From positions 1 through 35,322 of the forward strand of contig CANQNZ010000001.1 in assembly GCA_947625365.1 (NCBI GenBank): DNA of 35,322 bases, read 5' to 3'. The position numbers and the translations under genes were made by a program. The notes under the pieces are model-generated. The model ran no database searches, was not told the origin of the DNA, and saw nothing but the letters and a program-made list of their open reading frames with translations. The stretch comes from an uncultured Bacilli bacterium (GTDB lineage: Bacteria > Bacillota_I > Bacilli_A > RF39 > UBA660). Positions 24,221 to 34,134 of the stretch are shown here, in pieces (the first letter of the stretch is position 1; every line of letters begins with the position of its first letter).

Positions 24221-24251
24221 ATAAATGACTTTATACGTTGAGGTGGTGTAT

Positions 24252-24593
24252 ATGAAAGAGTTAAATTATAAAAAAATAGGGGAACGGTTAAGAAAACTTA
24301 GAAAATATATGGGCTTAACTCAAAGACAAGTTGCTGAGATTTTGAATGTAGGTAGAGATGCAATTTTAAGAATTGAAAAAGGAGAACGCAAGATTGATTT
24401 GCAAGAATTAATGAGTTTTTCAAAATTGTATAATATAAGTATGGATGAATTAACAGCTGAAGAACATGCTATAAATAGTAGTAATGTTATTTTTGCTAGG
24501 GGATTTAATGAATTAAGTGAAAAGGATAAAAAAGAAATTATTAGTTTAATTGAGTATAAGAATATATTAAAGTCACAAAATAAGGATGACTAA
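24252..24593 (+). CDS. XRE-family helix-turn-helix transcriptional regulator
   Basis: IGERLRKLRKYMGLTQRQVAEILNVGRDAILRIEKGERKIDLQELMSFSKLYNISMDEL is a canonical HTH_3/Cro-C1 fold sequence. The ATG at 24252 follows GAGGTGG. Confidence 0.9.
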   Translation: MKELNYKKIGERLRKLRKYMGLTQRQVAEILNVGRDAILRIEKGERKIDLQELMSFSKLYNISMDELTAEEHAINSSNVIFARGFNELSEKDKKEIISLIEYKNILKSQNKDD

Positions 24594-24594
24594 T

Positions 24595-25992
24595 ATGACA
24601 CCAGAAGATTTAGCCAAAAGAGAATTAGATAAGCTAAAGAAAAGTGGCAAATTAACTTTTCCGATAGACCCCTTTAAAATCCTTCATAATGCTGGTGTAT
24701 ACGTTGTATTAAAAAGTTTTGAAAATTTAGATGGTATTATCATTAATGATGAAGATAACTGTACAATTGTAGGTATTAATTCAAACAGCGGATGGCAAAG
24801 ACAAAGATTTACTGCAGCACATGAGTATTGTCACTTTATAAAAGATTTGAATAAAGAAATTGGAATAACTGACTATATTGAGTGCTTAAAAAAATCAAAT
24901 AAAAAAATTGAAAAATATGCAAACGATTTTGCTGGCTATTTACTTATGCCTACTGACGAATTAAGGACCGTATGTGAACAATACAAAAATAAAAATGGTT
25001 TTATTGATTTTGAAAGCATTACAATTATAGCTGAATATTTTGGTGTTAGCTTTAATTCTTGTTTGAATAGAATTGCTTATGGCTTAAATTTAATAAATGG
25101 TGATATTTCTTATGCATCATTAAGACAAAGAATGAAGGAGTATGGAGTATCAGCAAAAAGACAAGAATTAATAGAAAATAAAATTGATAGCACGTTGCTA
25201 TCTAATGTTGTAAGTTCCATGAGTTTTGCTATGATGGATATTAATAAGTATACTGGTCAAAAGTTTTTGCAAAATTATATTTATAATGATAATAAACTTG
25301 AAGGGGTAGTAATTGATAGGAAACAACTTAATTACATACTTGCCGATTTAAATTTTAATGGCACTGATAGTCAATTTTTTGAAAATGATAGAGAAGAAAT
25401 AGTAATGACACTTGGTAATTTAGAATTACAACGATATGTAATTAACACCAAAGATAACATTTTATTTAGAAACTGTGGACAATTACATTCATTATTATTT
25501 AAATATGTTCCATATCCTGATGATAATGGTAAGTATAGGGATGAAACGGCATTATTAAAAAGAGGTACTATACAACCAGTTCCATATTATGAGATAAATG
25601 ATAGAATTAATGCTCTTGATGAAGAATTACAATTTTTTATGGAAAATATAGAACAATATGAAATAGGAGAGTATATAGAGCAAGTGGCATATTTCACATA
25701 TAAGTTTATTGTTATTCATCCATTTAGAGATGGCAATGGACGTATATCAAGAGCTATAATGAATTGGCTTTTAAGCAAGAAGAAAATCCCTCCAATTTAT
25801 ATTGAACAAAAATGTAGAAAAGAATATTATGATGCATTATCAAAAATAGATTTAGAAGAGAATCCGGTTCCATTTATTATGTTTATTGAAAAAAGAATAA
25901 TTCATACAATGATGGAATTGCATAAATATTTATTTGTCGATGAGATAGATGAAGAAGAAATAAATGAGGAGGCTGAAGTTAATGAAAATTAA
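24595..25992 (+). CDS. ImmA/IrrE-family zinc metallopeptidase fused to a C-terminal Fic (AMPylase) domain
   Basis: HEYCH (nt 24820-24834) together with EKYANDFAGYLLMP matches the COG2856/Peptidase_M78 pattern. HPFRDGNGRISR (nt 25717-25752) is a complete Fic motif HxFx(D/E)GNGRxxR. The start at 24595 lies 2 nt after the XRE stop and 8 nt after AAGGA; an alternative ATG at 24586 exists. Confidence 0.85.
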   Translation: MTPEDLAKRELDKLKKSGKLTFPIDPFKILHNAGVYVVLKSFENLDGIIINDEDNCTIVGINSNSGWQRQRFTAAHEYCHFIKDLNKEIGITDYIECLKKSNKKIEKYANDFAGYLLMPTDELRTVCEQYKNKNGFIDFESITIIAEYFGVSFNSCLNRIAYGLNLINGDISYASLRQRMKEYGVSAKRQELIENKIDSTLLSNVVSSMSFAMMDINKYTGQKFLQNYIYNDNKLEGVVIDRKQLNYILADLNFNGTDSQFFENDREEIVMTLGNLELQRYVINTKDNILFRNCGQLHSLLFKYVPYPDDNGKYRDETALLKRGTIQPVPYYEINDRINALDEELQFFMENIEQYEIGEYIEQVAYFTYKFIVIHPFRDGNGRISRAIMNWLLSKKKIPPIYIEQKCRKEYYDALSKIDLEENPVPFIMFIEKRIIHTMMELHKYLFVDEIDEEEINEEAEVNEN

Positions 25993-26401
25993 TAAGTGGC
26001 CTAGAAATAATTATACAGGCCCAGGAGGCGGACTATATACAGGCCCAGGAGGTGGATTATATACGGGTCCAGGAGGTGGTGCATCTACAGGCCCAGGAGG
26101 TGGATTATATACAGGTCCAGGAGGTGGATTATATACAGGCCCGGGAGGCGGACTATATACAGGCCCAGGAGGTGGATTATAAACAGGTCCGGGAGGTGGA
26201 TTATATACGGGTCCAGGAGGTGGACTATATACAGGTCCAGGAGGTGGATTATACACCGGTCCAAGTGGCGGAGCATATAATGGCCCGGGAGAATCATATA
26301 TGAGTAATATTCCGCCATGGCCAGTATTTGTAAAAGAATTAGAAAAAAGAGGTTATAAAAAAGAGGCAGATTTAATTAAAAAATATCATAAATGTGATTA
26401 G
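25982..26401 (+). pseudogene. Gly/Pro/Tyr-rich repeat protein (YTGPGGGL x11) with a 40-aa non-repeat C-terminal tail; reading frame interrupted by one in-frame TAA at 26180-26182
   Basis: GAGGAGG Shine-Dalgarno sequence 8 nt upstream. The ATG at 25982 overlaps the Fic gene stop by 11 nt. The same frame continues after the TAA through four more repeat units to ...[30 protein letters not shown] and a TAG at 26399-26401. As written, it yields a 66-aa product. Confidence 0.6.
26012..26275 (+). repeat. Tandem 24-nt coding repeat, 11 units (plus a degenerate 12th)
   Basis: Unit consensus tatacaggYccaggaggtggaYta. Units 2 and 7 are identical, as are units 5 and 10. Local GC is about 50%, against about 30% in the flanks. 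Confidence 0.95.
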
Positions 26402-26548: not shown

Positions 26549-26741
26549 AAGCGATGAAAAAAGAGTAGTAGAATAAGAATTATTTTTAGAAAGCTAGTGG
26601 TTGATGAAAACTAGTAATAAGATTATTTGAACTTGCTTTTGGATGTGATGGGTCATCTCCCTTATGGATTTTAAGCTAGTAATACTAGGAACTTTAGGTG
26701 GTACCACGTTTAAATACGTCCTTTAGAGGATGTGTTTTTTT
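26549..26741 (+). promoter_or_regulatory. T-box riboswitch leader (tRNA-Leu responsive)
   Basis: Stem I elements GCGATGA...AGAGTAGTA, an AGAAAG bulge, and distal stem CTAGT-ggttgatgaaa-ACTAG. Candidate specifier GAA-CUU-G, with CUU (Leu) at 26632-26634. Conserved T-box sequence AGGTGGTACCACG at 26696-26708. Terminator ACGTCCT-ttag-AGGATGT plus a U-run at 26716-26741. Confidence 0.8.
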
Positions 26742-26760
26742 ATTAGAAAGAGGTTTTATA

Positions 26761-27153
26761 ATGTTATATAATTTAATATTTTTTCTAATTTTATTTGTTA
26801 TAGCTTGGATTATTTTTTCGCTCATTAATAGAGCTAAAATAAATACTAATAAGAAATACCAGATGGCGGAGGTAAAATATTTAATTAGTCGTTTTACTAT
26901 TGATAAAAAGAAAATAGATTATAAGAAGCTTATTAGATTAATTAATATAGCTAATGCTTTTATTATTTCTTTTGTTTGTACAATAATATCCGTACTACCA
27001 TTAAAGTTCTTATGGCAAATGTTAATTGGTTTTGTTTTATTATTTGTTTTAATGTTTTTATGTTATGAATTATTAGGAATATATGCAGTAAAGAAAGGTT
27101 GGAAGAAAAATGGAAAGAGATTATCAAAAAATAGAGAAAAAGTGGCAAAATAG
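26761..27153 (+). CDS. Small three-TM membrane protein (130 aa) lying between the T-box and leuS
   Basis: AGAAAGAGG Shine-Dalgarno sequence 5 nt before the ATG at 26761. Three hydrophobic helices and a Lys-rich tail. Its 3' end overlaps the leuS start by 44 nt in another frame. The track start at 26698 would lie inside the T-box terminator. Confidence 0.55.
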   Translation: MLYNLIFFLILFVIAWIIFSLINRAKINTNKKYQMAEVKYLISRFTIDKKKIDYKKLIRLINIANAFIISFVCTIISVLPLKFLWQMLIGFVLLFVLMFLCYELLGIYAVKKGWKKNGKRLSKNREKVAK

Positions 27154-29926
27154 ATGGGAAGAAAAGGGAGTTTTTAAAGCTATTAATGGTAGTGATAAAC
27201 CACCATATTATATATTAGTAGAATTTCCTTATCCATCAGGTTCTGGTTTGCATGTTGGGCATGTTCGTAGTTATACTGCCCAAGATGCTTTAGCACGAAT
27301 GAAAAGAATGCAAGGGTATAATGTGTTATATCCTATGGGTTGGGACGCTTTTGGAGCTCCAGCGGAAGGGTATGCAATAAAAAATCATATTCATCCTAAA
27401 CAAGCAGTTAAAGAAAATATAGCAACTTTTAAAAAGCAAATGCAATCTTTAGGATTTTCCTTTGATTGGGACCGAGAATTTTCAACTACTGACCCGGAAT
27501 ATTATAAATGGACTCAGTGGCAATTTTTACAATTTTATAAACATGGAATGGCTTATAAGGAAAAAGTGCCAGTAAATTGGTGCGATACATGTAAAACTGT
27601 TTTATCAAATGAAGATGCCGCTGGGGGTGTTTGTGAACGCTGTGGCAATAAAGTTGTTCAAAAAGAAAAATCACAGTGGATGCTTAAAATGGCTAGTTAT
27701 TCAGAGGATTTACTTAAAGGCTTAGATGATACTAACTTTGCCGAAAAAGTAAAACTAGGTCAAATTAACTGGATAGGTAAATCTGTGGGAGCTCATGTTG
27801 ATTTTAAAATAGCAGGTCATGATTTAACCTTTACAGTTTTTACAACGAGATGTGATACTTTATATGGTGCGACTTACTGCGTTTTAGCGCCAGAACATGA
27901 TTATGTTGATATTATTACAACTCCTGATAAAAAAGCAGAAGTCGAGGCGTATAAAAAAGCTTGTGCTTTAAAAAATGATTTAGAAAGAACCGAATTGAAT
28001 AAAGAAAAGACAGGTGTATTTACAGGAGCATATGCAATTAATCCTGTTAATAATAAAGAAATTCCTATTTATATAAGTGATTATGTTTTGGCTACTTATG
28101 GAACGGGAGCTATTATGGCAGTTCCGGCTCATGATGACCGAGACTATGAATTTGCCCAAAAATTTAATATTCCTATTATTCAAGTATTAGAAGAAGTTAC
28201 AGGCACTCCTCATGATAAAGAAGAAAAGAAAAATTCTATTGTTGCGGTAGTTTATGATGAAAAAGAAAATAAATATCTGACTTTAAATTGGGGTAAAAAA
28301 GGTGGTCGCTTATTTATTGGAGGCACTATAAAAGAGGGAGAAACACCACTGGAGTGTGCGCAAAGAGAAATTGCTGAAGAAACAGGTTTTACTTCTTTAG
28401 AGTTTGTAAAAGAATTACCGAAAATAAATCATCATTATTATGCTTATAATAAAGATAAATATTTTAATATTGAAAGTACTGGTTTCTTCTTTAAATTAAA
28501 AGCTAAGAAGCAAGTTGATTTAAATTTAGATGATGATGAAGATTTTAAAGCCGAATGGGTAAGTGAAGATGTTATCTTAAAAGAAGTTAAAGATGAGTTG
28601 CATATGAAAACATATGAATATGCGAAAAATCCAGGAGCTATGACTGGTGATGGTATTCATATTAATTCTGAGCAGTTAAATGGTTTAAATAAAGAAGAAG
28701 CTATAAATAAAATGATTGCTTGGCTTGAGAAAAATCATTGTGGTAAAAAACAAGTAAATTATAAAATGCGCGATTGGATATTCTCTCGTCAAAGATTTTG
28801 GGGGGAACCAATCCCAATGATACATTGTGAAAAATGTGGTTGGGTGCCAATGGATGAAAAAGATTTACCTTTGCTTCTTCCTGATGTGGCTGAGTATGAA
28901 CCAACTGATACAGGCGAAAGTCCTTTGGCTAAAATAACTGATTGGGTAAATACAACTTGTCCAAAATGCGGCGCTCCTGCTAAAAGAGAGACGGATACTA
29001 TGCCTAACTGGGCTGGTTCTTCATGGTATTTCTTAAGATTTATGGATGCTCATAATGATAAAGAATTTGCTTCAATGGATGCAATGAAATATTGGCAAAG
29101 AGTTGATTGGTATAACGGCGGAATGGAACATACGGCTCGTCACTTGCTTTATGCGCGTTTTTGGGTACAATTTCTATATAATATTGGCTTAGTTCCAAAT
29201 AAAGAAATGATTTGGACTAGAGTTTCTCACGGCATGGTTTTAGGTTCTAACAATGAAAAAATGAGTAAATCAAAAGGAAATGTTATTAATCCTGACGATA
29301 TAGTAAAAGAGTATGGCGCCGATACGTTACGTTTATATGAAATGTTTATGGGAAACTATGAACAGGATGCACCATGGAGTACTGACTCTTTAAAAGGCTG
29401 TAAACGTTTTATTGATAAAATCATAAGATTAAAAGATAAGGTTAATGATAAAACCGGTTACAGTAAGGATTTAGAAGCAATAATTCATAAAAGTATTAAA
29501 AAAGTAGAATACGATTTAACACACATGGCTTATAATACAGCTGTTTCGACTCTAATGATTTTAGCTAATGCATATGATGAAAAAGCTGAGCTTACTAAAG
29601 ATGAGTATCATTTATTATTAACATTATTAAATCCAATAGCTCCACATATAACTGAAGAGCTAAACGAAGAATTAGGTTATAAACCATTGACTGAAGAAGC
29701 ATGGCCGAAATACGATGAAGCTAAGCTTATAGATAGCGAAGTAGGAATAGCTATTTCAATAAATGGTAAATTACGTAATACTATTAAAGTACCTATAGAT
29801 AGTTCTAAAGAAACATTAGAAAATTTAGCTAAAAATGATGAAAAAATTCAAAAATATTTAGAAGGTAAAGAGATAGTTAAAGTTATTGTTGTACCTAATA
29901 AAATTGTTAATATAGTAGTAAAATAA
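27110..29926 (+). CDS. leuS: Leucyl-tRNA synthetase carrying an inserted Nudix-hydrolase domain
   Basis: HVGH (the HIGH motif) and KMSKS are present, along with WIGKSVGAHV, VFTTRCDT, GTGAIMAVPAHDDRDYEFA and RDWIFSRQRFWGEPIP. At 938 aa it is longer than the ~800 aa typical of Bacillus-type LeuS. The excess is a ~150-aa block (residues ~361-509) containing GGTIKEGETPLECAQREIAEETGF. Confidence 0.95.
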   Translation: MERDYQKIEKKWQNRWEEKGVFKAINGSDKPPYYILVEFPYPSGSGLHVGHVRSYTAQDALARMKRMQGYNVLYPMGWDAFGAPAEGYAIKNHIHPKQAVKENIATFKKQMQSLGFSFDWDREFSTTDPEYYKWTQWQFLQFYKHGMAYKEKVPVNWCDTCKTVLSNEDAAGGVCERCGNKVVQKEKSQWMLKMASYSEDLLKGLDDTNFAEKVKLGQINWIGKSVGAHVDFKIAGHDLTFTVFTTRCDTLYGATYCVLAPEHDYVDIITTPDKKAEVEAYKKACALKNDLERTELNKEKTGVFTGAYAINPVNNKEIPIYISDYVLATYGTGAIMAVPAHDDRDYEFAQKFNIPIIQVLEEVTGTPHDKEEKKNSIVAVVYDEKENKYLTLNWGKKGGRLFIGGTIKEGETPLECAQREIAEETGFTSLEFVKELPKINHHYYAYNKDKYFNIESTGFFFKLKAKKQVDLNLDDDEDFKAEWVSEDVILKEVKDELHMKTYEYAKNPGAMTGDGIHINSEQLNGLNKEEAINKMIAWLEKNHCGKKQVNYKMRDWIFSRQRFWGEPIPMIHCEKCGWVPMDEKDLPLLLPDVAEYEPTDTGESPLAKITDWVNTTCPKCGAPAKRETDTMPNWAGSSWYFLRFMDAHNDKEFASMDAMKYWQRVDWYNGGMEHTARHLLYARFWVQFLYNIGLVPNKEMIWTRVSHGMVLGSNNEKMSKSKGNVINPDDIVKEYGADTLRLYEMFMGNYEQDAPWSTDSLKGCKRFIDKIIRLKDKVNDKTGYSKDLEAIIHKSIKKVEYDLTHMAYNTAVSTLMILANAYDEKAELTKDEYHLLLTLLNPIAPHITEELNEELGYKPLTEEAWPKYDEAKLIDSEVGIAISINGKLRNTIKVPIDSSKETLENLAKNDEKIQKYLEGKEIVKVIVVPNKIVNIVVK

Positions 29927-31472: not shown

Positions 31473-31501
31473 TTGACATGTGTATTAAATACGCATATAA
31501 T
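31473..31501 (+). promoter_or_regulatory. Sigma-A consensus promoter of the Nudix-regulator operon
   Basis: TTGACA (31473-31478), a 17-nt spacer, then TATAAT (31496-31501). The spacer contains the inverted repeat GTATT-a-AATAC. Confidence 0.7.
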
Positions 31502-31516
31502 AGAATTGCGAGGTGG

Positions 31517-32194
31517 ATGGAATTGGAGGTTAATAACCCGCTATATAAAAATCAGGGAATACATGTTATTTCTAGTATTTTTACAGTTTCTAATGGAGAA
31601 GTTAAAGTGCTTTTAATCAAAAGAAAAAATAATCCCTATAATAATATGTGGGCATTAGTAGGAGGCGCTTTATATAATAATGAAGAATTAGAAGCGGGCA
31701 TGAAAAGAGAAATAAAAGAAAAAAGCGGTATTGATAATATTGAACTTTATTTTTCTGGAGTTTTTGGTAAAGTACATCGCTCACCGGTGATGAGAATGGT
31801 GGCCACGTCTTTTATCGGTGTAATTGATAAAGATAAAGTAGAAGTTATGAAAGAAACTTTAAAAACATCAAATGCTGATTGGTTTTCAATTACAAACATT
31901 CCAAATCTTGCTTATGACCATAACGAAATACTTAATCAAGCTTTAGAAACTTTAAGAGAAAAAATAGGTTATACTGATATTTTAAAGTCGCTTTTTCCTA
32001 ATGGTTTTACCCTTCCGGAAGTGCAAAGAACTTACGAGATAATTTTAGGTAAAGAATTTGACCGAAGAAATTTTCGTAAGAAGCTTTTAAATTCGGGAAT
32101 GATAAGTGACACTAATAAAACAGTGGTTTTTAAGGGTAATAAACCGGCGAAACTTTATAAGTTTAATGCTATCCAAAATAAAAATGTATTTTAA
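31517..32194 (+). CDS. NrtR-like protein: N-terminal Nudix domain plus C-terminal winged-helix DNA-binding domain
   Basis: Slightly degenerate Nudix box GGALYNNEELEAGMKREIKEKSGI. The C-terminal segment FTLPEVQRTYEILGKEFDRRNFRKKLL is typical of the NrtR wHTH. The track ATG at 31478 lies inside the promoter -35 element. The start is ATG 31517 or TTG 31523, after AGGTGG. Confidence 0.7.
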   Translation: MELEVNNPLYKNQGIHVISSIFTVSNGEVKVLLIKRKNNPYNNMWALVGGALYNNEELEAGMKREIKEKSGIDNIELYFSGVFGKVHRSPVMRMVATSFIGVIDKDKVEVMKETLKTSNADWFSITNIPNLAYDHNEILNQALETLREKIGYTDILKSLFPNGFTLPEVQRTYEIILGKEFDRRNFRKKLLNSGMISDTNKTVVFKGNKPAKLYKFNAIQNKNVF

Positions 32195-32248
32195 GTACAT
32201 TTTTAAAAACATCTACTAAGCGTAAAAAATACACTTATGGAGGTTTAA

Positions 32249-33667
32249 ATGAAAAGTAAACAAACTTTAGGGGTAAAAAAGGTTGATACACATGCAGAAG
32301 AAAATTTTGAATTAGAAAAAAAGTATATTTTTAGCTCTGGTAATATTCAAGATAATTTTGACATTGTAGCTAAAACTTTACATTTAAAAAATCCTAAGCA
32401 AGTAGAAAATTATGACATATATTATGATTTTGAAGACACTTTAGAAGCTTTTAGAATAGCGGTACGAAAAAGAGAATGTGATGGTAAAACAGAGTGGACG
32501 ATTAAAAGACCTGTTTCAGATATAACTTCTGGTTCTAAACGATTTGAAAAAAATTTTTCTAGCGAAGATGATGTATTAAAGTTTCTAAAGGAGAATTTAA
32601 ATATTTCCATTAGTAAGTTAGAACCAAAAATAATTTTAAAAACAAATAGGACTAAATATATTAAAAAGTTAGAAAATGGAACATTGGAAATTTCTTTTGA
32701 CATTACTACTTTTGAAGCTAATAATCAAAACTATCCCGCTAATTATATGATAGAATGTGAACTTATTAGTGGTAATGAGCAAAGCTTAGAAGTTATTAAC
32801 GAAAAATTAGAAAAGTTGCCATTTATTAAACCATCTTTCCAATCAAAAAAAGAAATAGCTTTAGAAAAGGTAAATCTTTCGCAAGAAAAAGCGCAAAAAA
32901 ATATTGATGAAAATATAAAACGCTTTTTCATTACTTCGCCTGAGTATTATGAAAAACTTTTAATTCTTCATCATAAAAAAGAAGAGATTAAAGCTTTAAA
33001 AGAAAAGTATGGTCGTTTGGAAAAACCGATAATTGTTACAGTTAGTGGAACACCTCGTGCAGGTAAAACGACGTGTATAGATAATTTATTTGAATTTTTA
33101 AAAAAGGCTGATTTAGAAACAAAATGTTTAGATGAGCCAGCGGGAATTGTATATGCGACCTTAAAAAATAAAGCCGAAAAAGCTAAATTATTAGAAGACA
33201 GAGTAGGTTTTGTTGATACGCAGTATAAAATAGGGCAAGAATATATAAATAAAAATGCCCATAATGAAGTTATTTTATGCGATAGAGGAGTATTTGATAC
33301 TTTCATTTGGTATGATATGTATTATAATAAAGGTATGATGTCTAAAGAACGTTATGAGCAATTTTTAAAGCTAATGGAAACAGATGGTAATTTTATTAAT
33401 TATTTTTATGGATTATATTGTCAAGCTGATGAAGCAATGCGCCGTGATTATTTAAACTCTTTATCCATAGAGCCAAGAACAACAATGACCTATGATAATA
33501 TTTTTAGCTATAATGCTTCTTTAATGCGTATGCTTCCTTTGATTAAGCAAAAGGCATCTGTTTCAGAATTAATAAATACAACTAATATTGGGAGAATGGA
33601 TGCTTCTTATATGATTGCTGCTCAAGTTTTAGACGATGTGAAAAAAATTTACTCTAAAAGGATGTGA
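32249..33667 (+). CDS. Fusion protein: N-terminal CYTH (triphosphate tunnel metalloenzyme) domain plus C-terminal P-loop nucleoside/nucleotide-kinase-like domain
   Basis: ExExK signature FELEKKY near the N-terminus, with a beta-rich ~190-aa region. Walker A VSGTPRAGKTT, followed by LDEPAG and CDRGVFDTFIW, which resemble the dNK/dNMP-kinase motifs E-P and DR. GGAGG Shine-Dalgarno sequence. Confidence 0.6.
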   Translation: MKSKQTLGVKKVDTHAEENFELEKKYIFSSGNIQDNFDIVAKTLHLKNPKQVENYDIYYDFEDTLEAFRIAVRKRECDGKTEWTIKRPVSDITSGSKRFEKNFSSEDDVLKFLKENLNISISKLEPKIILKTNRTKYIKKLENGTLEISFDITTFEANNQNYPANYMIECELISGNEQSLEVINEKLEKLPFIKPSFQSKKEIALEKVNLSQEKAQKNIDENIKRFFITSPEYYEKLLILHHKKEEIKALKEKYGRLEKPIIVTVSGTPRAGKTTCIDNLFEFLKKADLETKCLDEPAGIVYATLKNKAEKAKLLEDRVGFVDTQYKIGQEYINKNAHNEVILCDRGVFDTFIWYDMYYNKGMMSKERYEQFLKLMETDGNFINYFYGLYCQADEAMRRDYLNSLSIEPRTTMTYDNIFSYNASLMRMLPLIKQKASVSELINTTNIGRMDASYMIAAQVLDDVKKIYSKRM

Positions 33668-34134
33668 TTACTTTGTATTTTGTACAAAAAATAAAAGATT
33701 TAATTAAAGATAATGAAACTATTATTTTTGTAGATATGGATGGTGTCATAGCCGAATATGGATTTAAAGAAAAGCTAGATTTTCGAGAAAAACGACCATT
33801 AAAAAGTAATATTGAAGTTTTAAAACAAATCGCTAAATTTCCAAATGTAACATTACATATTCTTTCTATCTGCCGCCAAGATAGTCAAATTGCTGATAAA
33901 AACTATTGGTTAGATATCCATGCGCCATTTTTTAAAGAACGAACTATTATATCTAAAGAAAGTTACCCTAATAAAGCATCTAAAGAGTTAAAATTAGCTT
34001 ACTTGCAAAAATTTAAACAAGAAAATCCTAATGTTAAGTTAATTTTGATTGATGATGATAATGGTGTTTTAAAATATATTTGGGAGAATTTAGAAGGAAT
34101 TAAATTAATTCAAGATTCTTCTTTAATAGATTAA
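33664..34134 (+). CDS. HAD-superfamily 5'(3')-deoxyribonucleotidase-like protein (NT5C family)
   Basis: HAD motif I FVDMDGVIAEY (DxDxV) and motif IV LIDDDNG. At 156 aa, the size and pattern fit NT5C/YorS-type nucleotidases. The GTG start overlaps the upstream TGA (GTGA). Confidence 0.65.
   Translation: MITLYFVQKIKDLIKDNETIIFVDMDGVIAEYGFKEKLDFREKRPLKSNIEVLKQIAKFPNVTLHILSICRQDSQIADKNYWLDIHAPFFKERTIISKESYPNKASKELKLAYLQKFKQENPNVKLILIDDDNGVLKYIWENLEGIKLIQDSSLID

What the first reader, a model, noticed from the sequence alone, without database searches (positions are those of the whole stretch)
28190..28636. Nudix hydrolase domain inserted into leucyl-tRNA synthetase
Seen in sequence: about 150 residues (~361-509) lie between the conserved blocks AHDDRDYEFAQKFNIPIIQV and TGDGIHINSEQLNGL. 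In the Bacillus-type LeuS I recall, these blocks are separated by only about 8-10 residues. The insert contains a perfect Nudix box GX5EX7REUXEEXGU (GGTIKEGETPLECAQREIAEETGF, nt 28319-28390) with flanking beta-strand-like sequence. The insert accounts for the protein being 938 aa instead of about 800. Established knowledge: aminoacyl-tRNA synthetases produce Ap4A and related dinucleoside polyphosphates as side products, and many Nudix enzymes hydrolyse Ap4A and other NDP-X compounds. Inference: the insert may be a built-in hydrolase that clears dinucleoside polyphosphates or another adenylate-derived by-product, or a regulatory nucleotide-binding module. It sits at the junction where the CP1 editing domain returns to the catalytic core. 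The editing-site motif also reads TTRCDT rather than the usual TTRPDT. I am not aware of a described LeuS-Nudix chimera.
Basis: partly seen in the sequence, partly recalled or inferred. Interest (0 to 1): 0.7.

Follow-up and report, generated by a model that had tools for sequence, protein, structure and literature searches.

The report
Nudix hydrolase nested inside leucyl-tRNA synthetase
The leucyl-tRNA synthetase of this uncultured gut bacterium carries a complete, apparently active Nudix pyrophosphatase domain inside its proofreading domain, an arrangement that turns out to be widespread in two reduced-genome bacterial groups, is undescribed in the papers I could search, and is of unknown function.

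Summary
The 938-aa LeuS (27110..29926, +) has 148 residues (aa 366-513, nt 28205-28648) where Thermus LeuRS has a 13-residue loop. The insert matches Pfam NUDIX (E 1.6e-14) with a perfect Nudix box. It is predicted to fold confidently as a Nudix domain (pLDDT about 90).

It lies inside the CP1 editing domain, not at the junction with the catalytic core. It is not an artefact. All 80 loci returned from a scan of species-representative genomes (278 matching stretches) are gut Bacilli MAGs, one assigned to order RF39, and all encode the same fusion. The catalytic residues are invariant in 74/74 full-length orthologues, and the insert is as conserved as the catalytic core.

Distant LeuRS, including two Patescibacteria (CPR) enzymes, carry one to three such domains at several sites around CP1. 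Some genomes encode a free-standing CP1-like+Nudix protein, in three loci directly upstream of an insert-less LeuS.

The domain resembles NudH/RppH/Ap4A-hydrolase and Dcp2-type Nudix enzymes. It has the tyrosine linked to diadenosine-polyphosphate activity and is acidic. The best guess is a dinucleoside-polyphosphate or nucleotide pyrophosphatase using CP1 as scaffold (confidence about 0.4). The split variants weaken obligatory cis-coupling to the synthetic site. I found no published description.

The parts
27110..29926 (+). leuS ORF, 938 aa: bacterial-type leucyl-tRNA synthetase with a nested Nudix domain
   Evidence: ORF list. TIGR00396 scores 978 bits against a cut-off of 548. PDB phmmer to T. 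thermophilus LeuRS gives E 2.6e-218. The AF2 model matches LeuRS structures with TM 0.81-0.83, normalised to the target.
27251..27262 (+). HIGH signature (HVGH, aa 48-51) of the class I catalytic core
   Evidence: Motif search in the translation.
27767..28204 (+). CP1 editing domain, N-terminal part (aa 220-365). It includes the conserved AHDDRDY segment, with D345 at aa 340-346.
   Evidence: PF13603 E 1.4e-61, aa 220-373 = profile positions 2-152 of 185. Motif positions. P339, H341 and D345 are invariant across the fusions, free-standing proteins and other LeuS fragments in alignment A2.
27842..27859 (+). Thr-rich editing motif TTRCDT (aa 245-250), a variant of the usual TTRPDT
   Evidence: T, T, R, D and T are invariant in 74 orthologues. 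Position 248 is Cys in 63 and Pro in 11.
28205..28648 (+). The insert (aa 366-513): 148 residues replacing a 13-residue CP1 surface loop (Tt LeuRS 367-379)
   Evidence: Alignment to 1h3n. pLDDT of 10-residue blocks is 86-96 in the full-length model. The insert modelled alone has pLDDT 90.7 and pTM 0.85.
28235..28585 (+). Nudix domain as delimited by Pfam (aa 376-492)
   Evidence: PF00293 E 1.6e-14. Foldseek against PDB gives Nudix folds at probability 1.00.
28322..28390 (+). Nudix box GTIKEGETPLECAQREIAEETGF (aa 405-427)
   Evidence: G405, E411, R419, E420, E423, E424 and G426 are invariant in 74/74 full-length orthologues.
28430..28453 (+). X-loop motif HHYYAYNK (aa 441-448), with Tyr 16 and 17 residues after the box
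   Evidence: H441, H442 and Y443 are invariant. A [YF][YF]A..(H/N)K motif is seen across the listed LeuRS-nested and free-standing relatives. 44 of 51 domains have Tyr at +15 to +19.
28649..28744 (+). CP1 editing domain, C-terminal part (aa 514-545), before the linker strand back to the core
   Evidence: Alignment to Tt 380 onwards. Model secondary structure: strand 515-517, helix 528-541, strand 545-551.
29258..29272 (+). KMSKS signature (aa 717-721)
   Evidence: Motif search and alignment to Tt KMSKS.
26698..27153 (+). Small predicted membrane protein ORF immediately upstream, overlapping the leuS start. It is syntenic in related genomes.
   Evidence: 36% identity, E 1e-15, to the ORF upstream of the CP1-Nudix gene in L001. 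No Pfam hit.

Best explanation
SHOWN
- The gene is a bacterial-type LeuRS with intact HIGH and KMSKS signatures and CP1 Thr-rich and Asp motifs, so it is probably the housekeeping enzyme.
- Its CP1 editing domain carries a complete Nudix domain with all catalytic residues in a surface loop.
- This nested domain is under purifying selection as strong as on the catalytic core.
- Nudix plus CP1 behaves as a separable module. It occurs within LeuRS, as here, or as a free-standing CP1-like+Nudix protein.

INFERRED
- The Nudix is an active Mg2+-dependent pyrophosphohydrolase of the NudH/RppH/asymmetric-Ap4A-hydrolase type.
- Its most likely substrates are adenine-containing dinucleoside polyphosphates (Ap4A and relatives, which aminoacyl-tRNA synthetases make as side products) or a closely related nucleotide.
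- CP1 serves mainly as a structural platform, and possibly as an adenosine-binding one.
- Attachment to LeuRS guarantees stoichiometric co-expression in small genomes. It is not required for catalysis.
For: Identity and fold:
- Pfam NUDIX E 1.6e-14, perfect box.
- AF2 pLDDT about 90 for the insert, alone and in context.
- Foldseek finds the Nudix fold at probability 1.00.

Selection:
- The seven defining box residues are invariant in 74/74 orthologues.
- Mean identity of the insert is 0.70, against 0.73-0.77 for the cores and 0.56 for the C-terminal domain.

Subtype:
- Best TM-scores are to the A. aeolicus Ap4A hydrolase 3i7u (0.73/0.80) and T. thermophilus Ap6A hydrolase 1vc8 (0.68/0.78).
- Many E. 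coli RppH entries, including one bound to Ap4A, and CT771 also match.
- The best single-sequence PDB hit is CT771, which I recall as an asymmetric Ap4A hydrolase.
- The nearest free-standing relatives always match RppH models best.
- Tyr at +16/+17 lies in the X-loop, the position correlated with ApnA activity (PMC5389931).
- The ADP-ribose Pro and the NADH SQPWPFPxS motif are absent (read from the sequence).
- The domain is acidic, net charge about -8 and pI 5.0 in 74 orthologues. This fits a small-molecule substrate better than direct RNA binding.

Modularity:
- The free-standing proteins keep the Nudix at 62-68% identity, the same as orthologous fusions at 63-68%.
- Their CP1 part is shortened and has lost the Thr-rich motif.
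Against: - No biochemical data exist.
- Nudix substrate classes are poorly predictable from sequence or fold. The Foldseek E-values of very different Nudix enzymes are all about 1e-7.
- All NCBIfam equivalog cut-offs are missed by far, for example RppH at 32.5 bits against a cut-off of 118.
- The profile search puts Dcp2, an RNA-decapping enzyme, first at E 2.5e-8.
- The same subfamily is nested in RNase PH and in an IleRS-like enzyme. These two points hint at an RNA or tRNA-end substrate instead.
- From my own knowledge, LeuRS is not among the strongest Ap4A producers.
- The Nudix is grafted on the mobile editing domain, not next to the adenylate-forming site.
- I could not inspect model coordinates, so the orientation of the Nudix active site is unknown.
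Confidence: 0.4

Rival explanations
1. Hitch-hiking housekeeping Nudix. The domain is a general house-cleaning or other nucleotide pyrophosphatase with no mechanistic link to leucylation or editing. It is nested into abundant essential enzymes of reduced genomes simply as a permissive, co-expressed location. The substrate is not ApnA.
For: - The same Nudix subfamily is nested at several different sites of LeuRS: before CP1, after CP1, within the C-terminal core, in one to three copies.
- It also occurs in an IleRS-like enzyme, RNase PH and a GNAT/M17 peptidase protein.
- It occurs free-standing at about 150-190 aa.
- The fusion-bearing lineages identified are RF39 and Patescibacteria, which I know as reduced-genome groups.
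- Split variants show the LeuRS body is dispensable.
Against: - 102 of the best 150 representative clusters found with the Nudix profile are LeuRS-linked, although the profile was built from LeuRS inserts.
- The free-standing versions retain a CP1 remnant with the invariant VPxH...D segment rather than shedding it.
- In three loci the gene stays directly upstream of leuS.
- Together these argue for a specific CP1/LeuRS connection.
Confidence: 0.25
2. tRNA/RNA-end-directed Nudix. CP1, which binds the tRNA 3'-terminal A76, delivers the acceptor end of tRNALeu. The Nudix then removes a pyrophosphate-linked group from an RNA end. Candidates are a 3'-pyrophosphate installed by toxSAS toxins, or a 5'-triphosphate, NAD or Np4A cap. 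This would be a repair or decapping activity working in cis or in trans.
For: - The profile search of PDB ranks the Dcp2 catalytic domain first, E 2.5e-8 over nearly the whole domain.
- RppH is among the best structural and family matches.
- The host proteins of this Nudix subfamily include three enzymes that handle the tRNA 3' end: LeuRS CP1, an IleRS-like enzyme and RNase PH.
- The free-standing proteins keep the CP1 segment containing D345.
- tRNA CCA-end pyrophosphorylation is an established toxin mechanism (bioRxiv 10.1101/2021.04.30.441581 and PMC11559606).
Against: - The Nudix domain is strongly acidic, which is unfavourable for RNA binding on its own.
- In the commonest free-standing form the CP1 Thr-rich motif and the GTG segment of the A76 pocket are lost.
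- There is no evidence on tRNA ends in these organisms.
- The geometry was not examined.
Confidence: 0.15
3. Non-catalytic module. The Nudix fold acts as a nucleotide sensor that regulates LeuRS, or as an extra tRNA- or protein-binding surface. Other Nudix-fold proteins have non-enzymatic roles.
For: - Non-enzymatic Nudix proteins exist (PMC5389931).
- A few distant LeuRS-Nudix representatives lack a strict box: P0311, P0324, P0338, P0375.
- The N-terminal linker VLEEVTG is highly conserved and is modelled as a strand, suggesting rigid packing on CP1.
Against: - All catalytic and metal-binding Glu/Arg residues are invariant in 74/74 orthologues.
- They are retained in most distant fusions and in the free-standing proteins. 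This is hard to explain without catalysis.
Confidence: 0.08
4. Artefact: an assembly chimera or mis-joined contig.
For: None found.
Against: - The same uninterrupted ORF of about 936 aa is present in 80 loci from independent MAG projects covering rabbit, chicken, ruminant, mouse and human gut.
- All of the best 120 protein clusters carry the Nudix domain.
- Insert GC (0.297) and GC3 (0.162) match the rest of the gene (0.331 and 0.194).
Confidence: 0.01

Closest known systems
Bacterial leucyl-tRNA synthetase (T. thermophilus 1H3N/2BYT/2BTE, E. coli 4AQ7/4ARC)
   Same: - Full catalytic core with HIGH and KMSKS.
- CP1 editing domain with the Thr-rich motif and D345.
- Anticodon-binding and C-terminal domains.
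- 730 bits by phmmer; TM 0.81-0.82 normalised to the target.
   Different: - 148 residues forming a Nudix domain replace a 13-residue CP1 loop. No solved LeuRS among the matches has this.
- The motif reads TTRCDT rather than TTRPDT.
- No stretch aligns to Tt residues about 594-637. From my own knowledge that is the leucine-specific domain.
NudH/RppH and asymmetric ApnA hydrolases (E. coli RppH 4S2X/7SP3, C. trachomatis CT771 4ILQ, A. aeolicus Ap4A hydrolase 3I7U, T. thermophilus Ndx1 1VC8)
   Same: - Nudix fold and complete Nudix box.
- Aromatic Tyr about 16-18 residues after the box.
- Best structural TM-scores and best NCBIfam family matches.
   Different: - Sequence identity is only 14-22%.
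- Scores are far below every equivalog cut-off.
- The domain is nested inside another domain instead of free-standing.
- It is acidic.
- It has its own conserved motif (HHYYAYNK, generalised as [YF][YF]A..(H/N)K) and an acidic LDxDE loop.
Dcp2 catalytic Nudix domain (yeast 2JVB/4KG4)
   Same: Best profile-to-sequence match in PDB, E 2.5e-8, aligned over profile positions 14-132.
   Different: - Dcp2 is a eukaryotic mRNA-decapping enzyme that, from my own knowledge, works with a regulatory domain and Dcp1.
- No such partners are present here.
- The match is 37 bits only.
Aminoacyl-tRNA synthetases with an added catalytic domain, and free-standing editing-domain paralogues (IleRS with a GNAT domain, NCBIfam NF040702; AlaX and YbaK/ProX trans-editing proteins)
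   Same: - A class Ia synthetase that has acquired a whole accessory enzyme domain. NF040702 appears in the hit list.
- An editing-domain-derived protein exists as a separate gene. AlaX and YbaK are cited from established knowledge.
   Different: - The accessory domain here is a Nudix nested within CP1.
- The free-standing CP1-like proteins have mostly lost the Thr-rich editing motif, so they are unlikely to be trans-editing deacylases.
Mollicutes LeuRS with degenerate or missing CP1 (Mycoplasma mobile 3ZIU)
   Same: - Related low-GC Bacilli lineage, with variation of the CP1 editing motif.
- TTRCDT here; TTCIET in the insert-less LeuS of L001, L003 and L086.
- 3ZIU is among the PDB hits.
   Different: The window enzyme keeps a full CP1 with T245, T246, T250 and D345. 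It has gained a domain rather than lost one.

Membership tests
Bacterial-type leucyl-tRNA synthetase (TIGR00396 leuS_bact) | Whole-protein score above the curated cut-off | tested here: met
   978.4 bits against a cut-off of 548.4.
Bacterial-type leucyl-tRNA synthetase (TIGR00396 leuS_bact) | Class I HIGH and KMSKS signatures | tested here: met
   HVGH at aa 48-51 and KMSKS at aa 717-721.
Bacterial-type leucyl-tRNA synthetase (TIGR00396 leuS_bact) | CP1 editing domain with the Thr-rich motif and the conserved Asp (E. coli D345) | tested here: met
   PF13603 E 1.4e-61. TTRCDT at aa 245-250 and AHDDRDY at aa 340-346. The proline is replaced by Cys in 63/74 orthologues.
Bacterial-type leucyl-tRNA synthetase (TIGR00396 leuS_bact) | Leucylation of tRNALeu and hydrolytic editing activity | not testable with these tools
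   Needs enzyme assays.
Nudix hydrolase superfamily (PF00293) | Nudix box GX5EX7REUXEEXGU | tested here: met
   GTIKEGETPLECAQREIAEETGF at aa 405-427. Key residues are invariant in 74/74 orthologues.
Nudix hydrolase superfamily (PF00293) | Profile score above Pfam gathering threshold | tested here: met
   54.5 bits (58.7 for the insert alone) against 21.1.
Nudix hydrolase superfamily (PF00293) | Alpha/beta/alpha Nudix fold | tested here: met
   Prediction only. AF2 pLDDT 90.7 and pTM 0.85. Foldseek probability 1.00 to many Nudix structures, TM up to 0.80.
Nudix hydrolase superfamily (PF00293) | Mg2+/Mn2+-dependent pyrophosphohydrolase activity | not testable with these tools
   Needs enzyme assays.
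ApnA (diadenosine polyphosphate) hydrolase subgroup of Nudix | Tyr in the X-loop about 16-18 residues after the Nudix box | tested here: met
   Y443 and Y444 lie at +16 and +17, and Y443 is invariant. The signature is as summarised in PMC5389931.
ApnA (diadenosine polyphosphate) hydrolase subgroup of Nudix | Hydrolysis of Ap4A or ApnA | not testable with these tools
   Needs enzyme assays.
RNA pyrophosphohydrolase RppH (NCBIfam PRK00714 models) | Score above the equivalog cut-off | tested here: not met
   32.5 bits against a cut-off of 118. The nearest free-standing relatives score 20-42 bits against 116-259. This is resemblance only, not membership.
ADP-ribose pyrophosphatase subgroup | Pro about 16 residues after the Nudix box | tested here: not met
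   No Pro at +14 to +17. The nearest is P437 at +10.
NADH diphosphatase (NudC) subgroup | SQPWPFPxS motif after the box | tested here: not met
   Absent from the insert sequence (read directly).
Free-standing trans-editing proteins (for the related CP1-Nudix genes in L001, L003, L086) | Intact editing active site (Thr-rich motif plus conserved Asp) | tested here: not met
   The motif reads VKEVDT in the P0009 type, and ERPEL, ERLET or TREEL in others. The D345 equivalent is kept.

The most novel reading that the evidence does not exclude
CP1+Nudix is a previously unrecognised two-domain tRNA-end surveillance module. A tRNA-3'-end-binding host domain (LeuRS or IleRS CP1, or RNase PH) presents the acceptor end. 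The nested Nudix removes pyrophosphate-linked lesions or caps, for example toxSAS-installed 3'-pyrophosphate or 5'-ppp/Np4A/NAD caps. It would work in cis within LeuRS or in trans as a free-standing protein, in RF39 and CPR bacteria.
Probability: 0.12. Interest if true: 0.85.

Novelty: new variant of a known kind. Interest (0 to 1): 0.62.

Why it matters
Bacterial aminoacyl-tRNA synthetases rarely carry a second complete enzyme. Here an intact pyrophosphatase sits inside the proofreading domain of an essential synthetase.

It is conserved across a gut lineage that includes RF39 (80 loci checked). Distant versions, including two Patescibacteria enzymes, carry up to three copies and come in eight full-length architectures. 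Naturally split versions also exist.

This provides a natural, genetically tractable link between tRNA charging or editing and nucleotide chemistry (Ap4A, alarmones or RNA ends). That link has long been discussed for synthetases, but without a dedicated built-in hydrolase.

The fused and split forms are ready-made controls for experiments. The insert also changes the CP1 domain, which is a drug target (benzoxaboroles), in abundant uncultured gut bacteria.

Tried and rejected
1. Assembly chimera. Rejected: 80 independent loci and all of the best 120 protein clusters share the architecture, and composition is uniform.

2. A known LeuRS-specific insertion without a Nudix fold. Rejected by Pfam, AF2 and Foldseek.

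3. A close free-standing Nudix ancestor. The word-indexed search with the insert alone returned only fragments of the same family. The exhaustive profile search found free-standing relatives only at E of about 1e-20 or weaker, apart from one 154-aa sequence (P0253, E 7.5e-33) that could be a fragment. None reaches an NCBIfam equivalog cut-off.

4. The short 276-284-aa hits as artefacts of TGA=Trp recoding of a full LeuS. Rejected for L001, L003 and L086, where they are complete genes translating in the standard code (table 11), each followed by a ribosome-binding site and a full 806-aa LeuS. One other locus (L084) does use TGA=Trp, but there too the gene is complete at 300 aa.

5. A defence-system Nudix. 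PADLOC gives only a weak hit confined to the box.

6. Literature. The CP1-hairpin paper (PMC4138327) and the beta-grasp review (PMC1949818) proved irrelevant to this insert.

7. Geometry. I could not obtain model coordinates or PAE. The position of the Nudix active site relative to the editing pocket, the synthetic site and the tRNA path is therefore untested.

8. Genome-wide questions could not be addressed with contig-level data. These include whether this is the only LeuS, and whether rppH, apaH or nudH are present elsewhere in the genome.


Full report
**Observation**

The window contains one long ORF at 27110..29926 (+) of 938 aa. It is a bacterial-type leucyl-tRNA synthetase.
- TIGR00396 scores 978 bits against a cut-off of 548.
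- phmmer against PDB gives E 2.6e-218 to T. thermophilus LeuRS.
- HIGH (HVGH, aa 48-51) and KMSKS (aa 717-721) are present.

The finding's coordinates are exact. aa 361-509 correspond to nt 28190-28636, and the quoted 24-mer is aa 404-427 (nt 28319-28390). The strict 23-residue Nudix box begins at G405.

Pfam NUDIX (PF00293) matches aa 376-492 with E 1.6e-14 and 54.5 bits (gathering cut-off 21.1). On the excised segment it scores E 7.8e-16.

**Where the insert sits**

The residue-level alignment to T. thermophilus LeuRS runs aa 6-365 = Tt 7-366 and resumes at aa 514 = Tt 380. So 148 residues (aa 366-513, nt 28205-28648) replace a 13-residue loop.

The Pfam editing-domain model PF13603 is interrupted at about position 152 of 185. 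About 32 more CP1 residues follow the insert. In the model these form strand 515-517 and helix 528-541, before strand 545-551 returns to the core.

Structure predictions:
- An AlphaFold2 model of the whole protein has mean pLDDT 84.6. The 10-residue blocks covering the insert score 86-96.
- The body superposes on solved LeuRS (2BTE, 4AQ7) with TM 0.81-0.82, normalised to the target.
- Modelled alone, the insert has pLDDT 90.7 and pTM 0.85, with the expected strand/helix order of a Nudix fold.
- Foldseek matches Nudix hydrolases at probability 1.00.

**Not an artefact, and under selection**

All of the best 120 protein clusters found with the full-length query (71-100% identity, mostly about 926-940 aa, with one 1101-aa exception) carry PF00293. 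Their only names are 'class I tRNA ligase family protein' or 'leucyl-tRNA synthetase'.

A scan of one genome per GTDB species found 278 stretches encoding a relative. The 80 loci returned are all uncultured gut MAGs, mostly labelled Bacilli, from rabbit, chicken, ruminants, mouse and human. Each carries the Nudix box inside one long LeuS ORF, allowing for seven ORFs cut by contig ends.

One of them, Candidatus Faecenecus gallistercoris, is assigned to GTDB order RF39 (PMC8035907).

In 74 full-length orthologues:
- G405, E411, R419, E420, E423, E424 and G426 are invariant.
- Mean identity to the window is 0.70 for the insert, 0.73-0.77 for the two core segments, and 0.56 for the C-terminal domain.
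- TTRCDT has Cys in 63 and Pro in 11.

Base composition of the insert equals that of the rest of the gene.

**The phenomenon is much wider**

I ran an exhaustive HMM search of 1.84 billion representative proteins with a profile of the insert. It gave 1039 hits at E <= 1e-3 and 179 at E <= 1e-10.

I mapped window LeuS segments onto the best 150 representatives. Of these, 102 are LeuRS-linked. 29 full-length LeuRS clusters fall into eight architectures:
- the window's order, N-core, CP1, Nudix, C-core, anticodon domain (20 clusters, plus one more in which the short C-terminal CP1 segment was also detected);
- two tandem Nudix domains after CP1;
- one Nudix before CP1;
- one before and one after CP1;
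- two before CP1;
- a further copy within the C-terminal core.

One 1140-aa protein (P0243) has three Pfam Nudix stretches. These proteins are 38-48% identical to the window enzyme, often aligned end to end through the insert. Most keep a strict Nudix box.

Two have informative names: LeuRS of Candidatus Moranbacteria GW2011_GWF1_34_10, and leucine--tRNA ligase of a Patescibacteria group bacterium. So LeuRS-nested Nudix domains occur both in the gut Bacilli lineage that includes RF39 and in CPR/Patescibacteria.

**Natural split forms**

The first homologue search also found a family of 276-284-aa proteins carrying PF13603 and PF00293.

In MAGs GCA_947626095.1 and GCA_947625535.1, and in a third contig, this gene lies 14-16 nt upstream of a complete 806-aa LeuS. 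A ribosome-binding site lies between the two genes. The 806-aa LeuS has an uninterrupted CP1 and no Nudix. The small membrane-protein ORF upstream is syntenic with window 26698..27153.

The free-standing protein corresponds exactly to window aa 230-543, that is, CP1 plus Nudix (50% identity).

Region by region:

| Region compared with the window | Identity |
|---|---|
| Nudix of the free-standing proteins | 62-68% |
| Nudix of orthologous fusions | 63-68% |
| N- and C-terminal cores of the neighbouring insert-less LeuS | 82% and 91% |
| CP1 of the neighbouring insert-less LeuS | 44-48% |
| CP1 of ordinary fused orthologues | 73-82% |

The CP1 part of the free-standing protein has a gap of about 26 residues relative to the window CP1, and its Thr-rich motif reads VKEVDT. 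The insert-less LeuS has the motif TTCIET.

Other divergent clusters of 273-308-aa CP1-like+Nudix proteins show the same pattern. Their box is intact, and the motif is degenerate as ERPEL, ERLET or TREEL. One such gene lies in an organism that reads TGA as Trp, next to a second Nudix gene and a gene with a weak ASCH-domain hit.

The segment VPxH...D, which includes the equivalent of E. coli D345, is invariant in all forms.

I infer three things:
- The Nudix activity is what is selected.
- It does not need covalent linkage to the synthetic core.
- It stays associated with a CP1 scaffold, and in the three loci examined it stays next to leuS.

Whether fusion or fission came first is unresolved.

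**What kind of Nudix**

Single-sequence PDB search:
- C. trachomatis CT771, E 6e-5. I recall this protein as an asymmetric Ap4A hydrolase.
- T. thermophilus ADP-ribose pyrophosphatase, E 1e-4.
- Dcp2, E about 7e-4.
- A lupin Ap4A hydrolase, E 1.4e-3.

The profile search puts the Dcp2 catalytic domain first, E 2.5e-8 over positions 14-132, followed by CT771 and NudB.

NCBIfam gives RppH and NudB as the best models, but far below cut-off (32 bits against 103-118). Ten of the nearest free-standing relatives all match RppH models best, again well below cut-off.

In the Foldseek search:
- The highest TM-scores are to the A. aeolicus Ap4A hydrolase 3I7U (0.73/0.80) and T. thermophilus Ap6A hydrolase Ndx1 (0.68/0.78).
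- Many E. coli RppH entries score 0.67-0.70.
- E-values of very different Nudix enzymes all cluster near 1e-7.

Downstream of the box the family has a conserved [YF][YF]A..(H/N)K motif. In the window this is HHYYAYNK, with Y443 and Y444 at +16 and +17. 44 of 51 domains examined have Tyr at +15 to +19. A Tyr at this X-loop position is the signature associated with diadenosine-polyphosphate hydrolases. The Pro of ADP-ribose pyrophosphatases and the SQPWPFPxS motif of NADH diphosphatases mark other classes (PMC5389931). Both are absent here (and direct reading of the sequence).

The insert is acidic in all 74 orthologues, with median net charge -8 and pI 5.0.

**Mechanism**

Shown:
- an intact, conserved, autonomously folding Nudix domain nested in CP1 of a LeuRS that is probably the housekeeping enzyme;
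- separability of CP1+Nudix from the LeuRS body.

Inferred, at confidence about 0.4:
- The domain is an active pyrophosphohydrolase of the NudH/RppH/Ap4A-hydrolase type.
- It acts on dinucleoside polyphosphates or a related adenine nucleotide.
- CP1 is its platform, and the fusion ensures co-expression.

It drops the claim that proximity to the adenylate-forming site is essential, because the split forms lack that site.

Rivals:
- (a) A hitch-hiking house-cleaning Nudix with another substrate (0.25). Support comes from the variety of insertion sites and host proteins: an IleRS-like enzyme that also carries a histidine-phosphatase domain, RNase PH, and a GNAT/M17 protein.
- (b) An RNA or tRNA-end-directed activity (0.15). 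Support comes from the Dcp2 and RppH resemblance, and from the fact that LeuRS CP1, IleRS CP1 and RNase PH all handle the tRNA 3' end. Removal of a toxSAS-installed 3'-pyrophosphate would be one concrete possibility (bioRxiv 10.1101/2021.04.30.441581 and PMC11559606). The acidic surface and the degenerate A76 pocket in the commonest split form argue against it.
- (c) A non-catalytic sensor or binding module (0.08). The invariant catalytic residues contradict this.
- (d) An artefact (about 0).

**Comparison with the known, and novelty**

The protein is a member of bacterial LeuRS and of the Nudix superfamily. It resembles, but does not qualify as, RppH or any other defined Nudix equivalog.

Full-text searches found no description of a LeuRS-Nudix protein. 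The queries were leucyl-tRNA synthetase or LeuRS with Nudix, Nudix with aminoacyl-tRNA synthetase and fusion, and CP1 with insertion and Nudix. A comprehensive Nudix review never mentions a tRNA synthetase.

The sequences are already in public databases under generic names, so the architecture is visible to automated annotation. It appears unstudied. I rate it a new variant of a known kind: a synthetase with an accessory enzyme domain.

**Limits**
- There is no biochemistry.
- I had no access to model coordinates or PAE, so the geometry relative to the editing and synthetic sites and the tRNA path is unknown.
- Only 80 of the 278 matching stretches could be inspected.
- Taxonomy of most distant representatives is unknown.
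- Contig-level data cannot show whether this is the only LeuS, or which other Nudix, ApaH or RppH genes these genomes hold.

Noticed in passing
L001:6001-6855, L003:6001-6831, L086:5001-5855 (each followed by an 806-aa leuS): A free-standing 276-284-aa CP1-like+Nudix gene lies 14-16 nt upstream of an insert-less LeuS. Its Nudix is as conserved as in the fusions. Its CP1 part is shortened and has lost the Thr-rich motif.
   Followed up: yes
L001:6870-9290 (also L003 and L086): The insert-less LeuS of these genomes has cores 82-91% identical to the window enzyme, but a CP1 only 44-48% identical, with editing motif TTCIET. This suggests CP1 replacement or accelerated evolution, and possibly altered editing.
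   Followed up: partly
Proteins P0279, P0306, P0312 (from the representative search, no locus): The same Nudix subfamily is nested in other enzymes. These are an IleRS-like class I synthetase that also carries a histidine-phosphatase domain, an RNase PH with the Nudix between its two domains, and a GNAT-Nudix-GNAT-M17 peptidase protein.
   Followed up: partly
Proteins P0239, P0243, P0252, P0256, P0257, P0262, P0276, P0307, P0371: LeuRS variants of 988-1183 aa carry one to three Nudix domains before CP1, after CP1 or within the C-terminal core. P0239, which shares 62-71% identity with the window enzyme, has two tandem Nudix domains of different subtypes.
   Followed up: partly
L084:1269-2969: A contig from an organism that reads TGA as Trp. 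It encodes a 300-aa free-standing CP1-Nudix protein, followed by an overlapping second Nudix gene and a gene with a weak ASCH-domain hit.
   Followed up: partly
window 31478-34134: A second, unrelated Nudix gene lies 1.5 kb downstream of leuS. It is an NrtR-like Nudix plus winged-helix regulator. It is followed by a CYTH+AAA_28 protein and a weak NT5C-like ORF, which looks like a nucleotide or NAD-related cluster.
   Followed up: no
window 26012-26263: A 24-bp tandem repeat of 10.5 copies (85% matches). ORFs are open on both strands, with PPPGPVY repeats on the minus strand. It lies about 0.4 kb upstream of the small membrane ORF that precedes leuS.
   Followed up: no
window 24225-25992: An HTH regulator gene is followed by a 468-aa protein that combines an IrrE/M78 peptidase domain with a Fic/DOC domain. 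The pair looks like a toxin-antitoxin or mobile-element regulator.
   Followed up: no
window 29258-29290 region (aa 717-727): No stretch of the window LeuS aligns to T. thermophilus residues about 594-637. From my own knowledge that region is the leucine-specific domain, which is also reduced in some Mollicutes enzymes.
   Followed up: no
window 28355-28357 (C416) and 27851-27853 (C248): Two Cys residues not seen at the aligned positions of most distant relatives. C416 in the Nudix helix is invariant in 74/74 orthologues and in the free-standing proteins, while most distant LeuRS-Nudix domains listed have Ala there. C248 gives the TTRCDT motif. Their significance is unknown.
   Followed up: no
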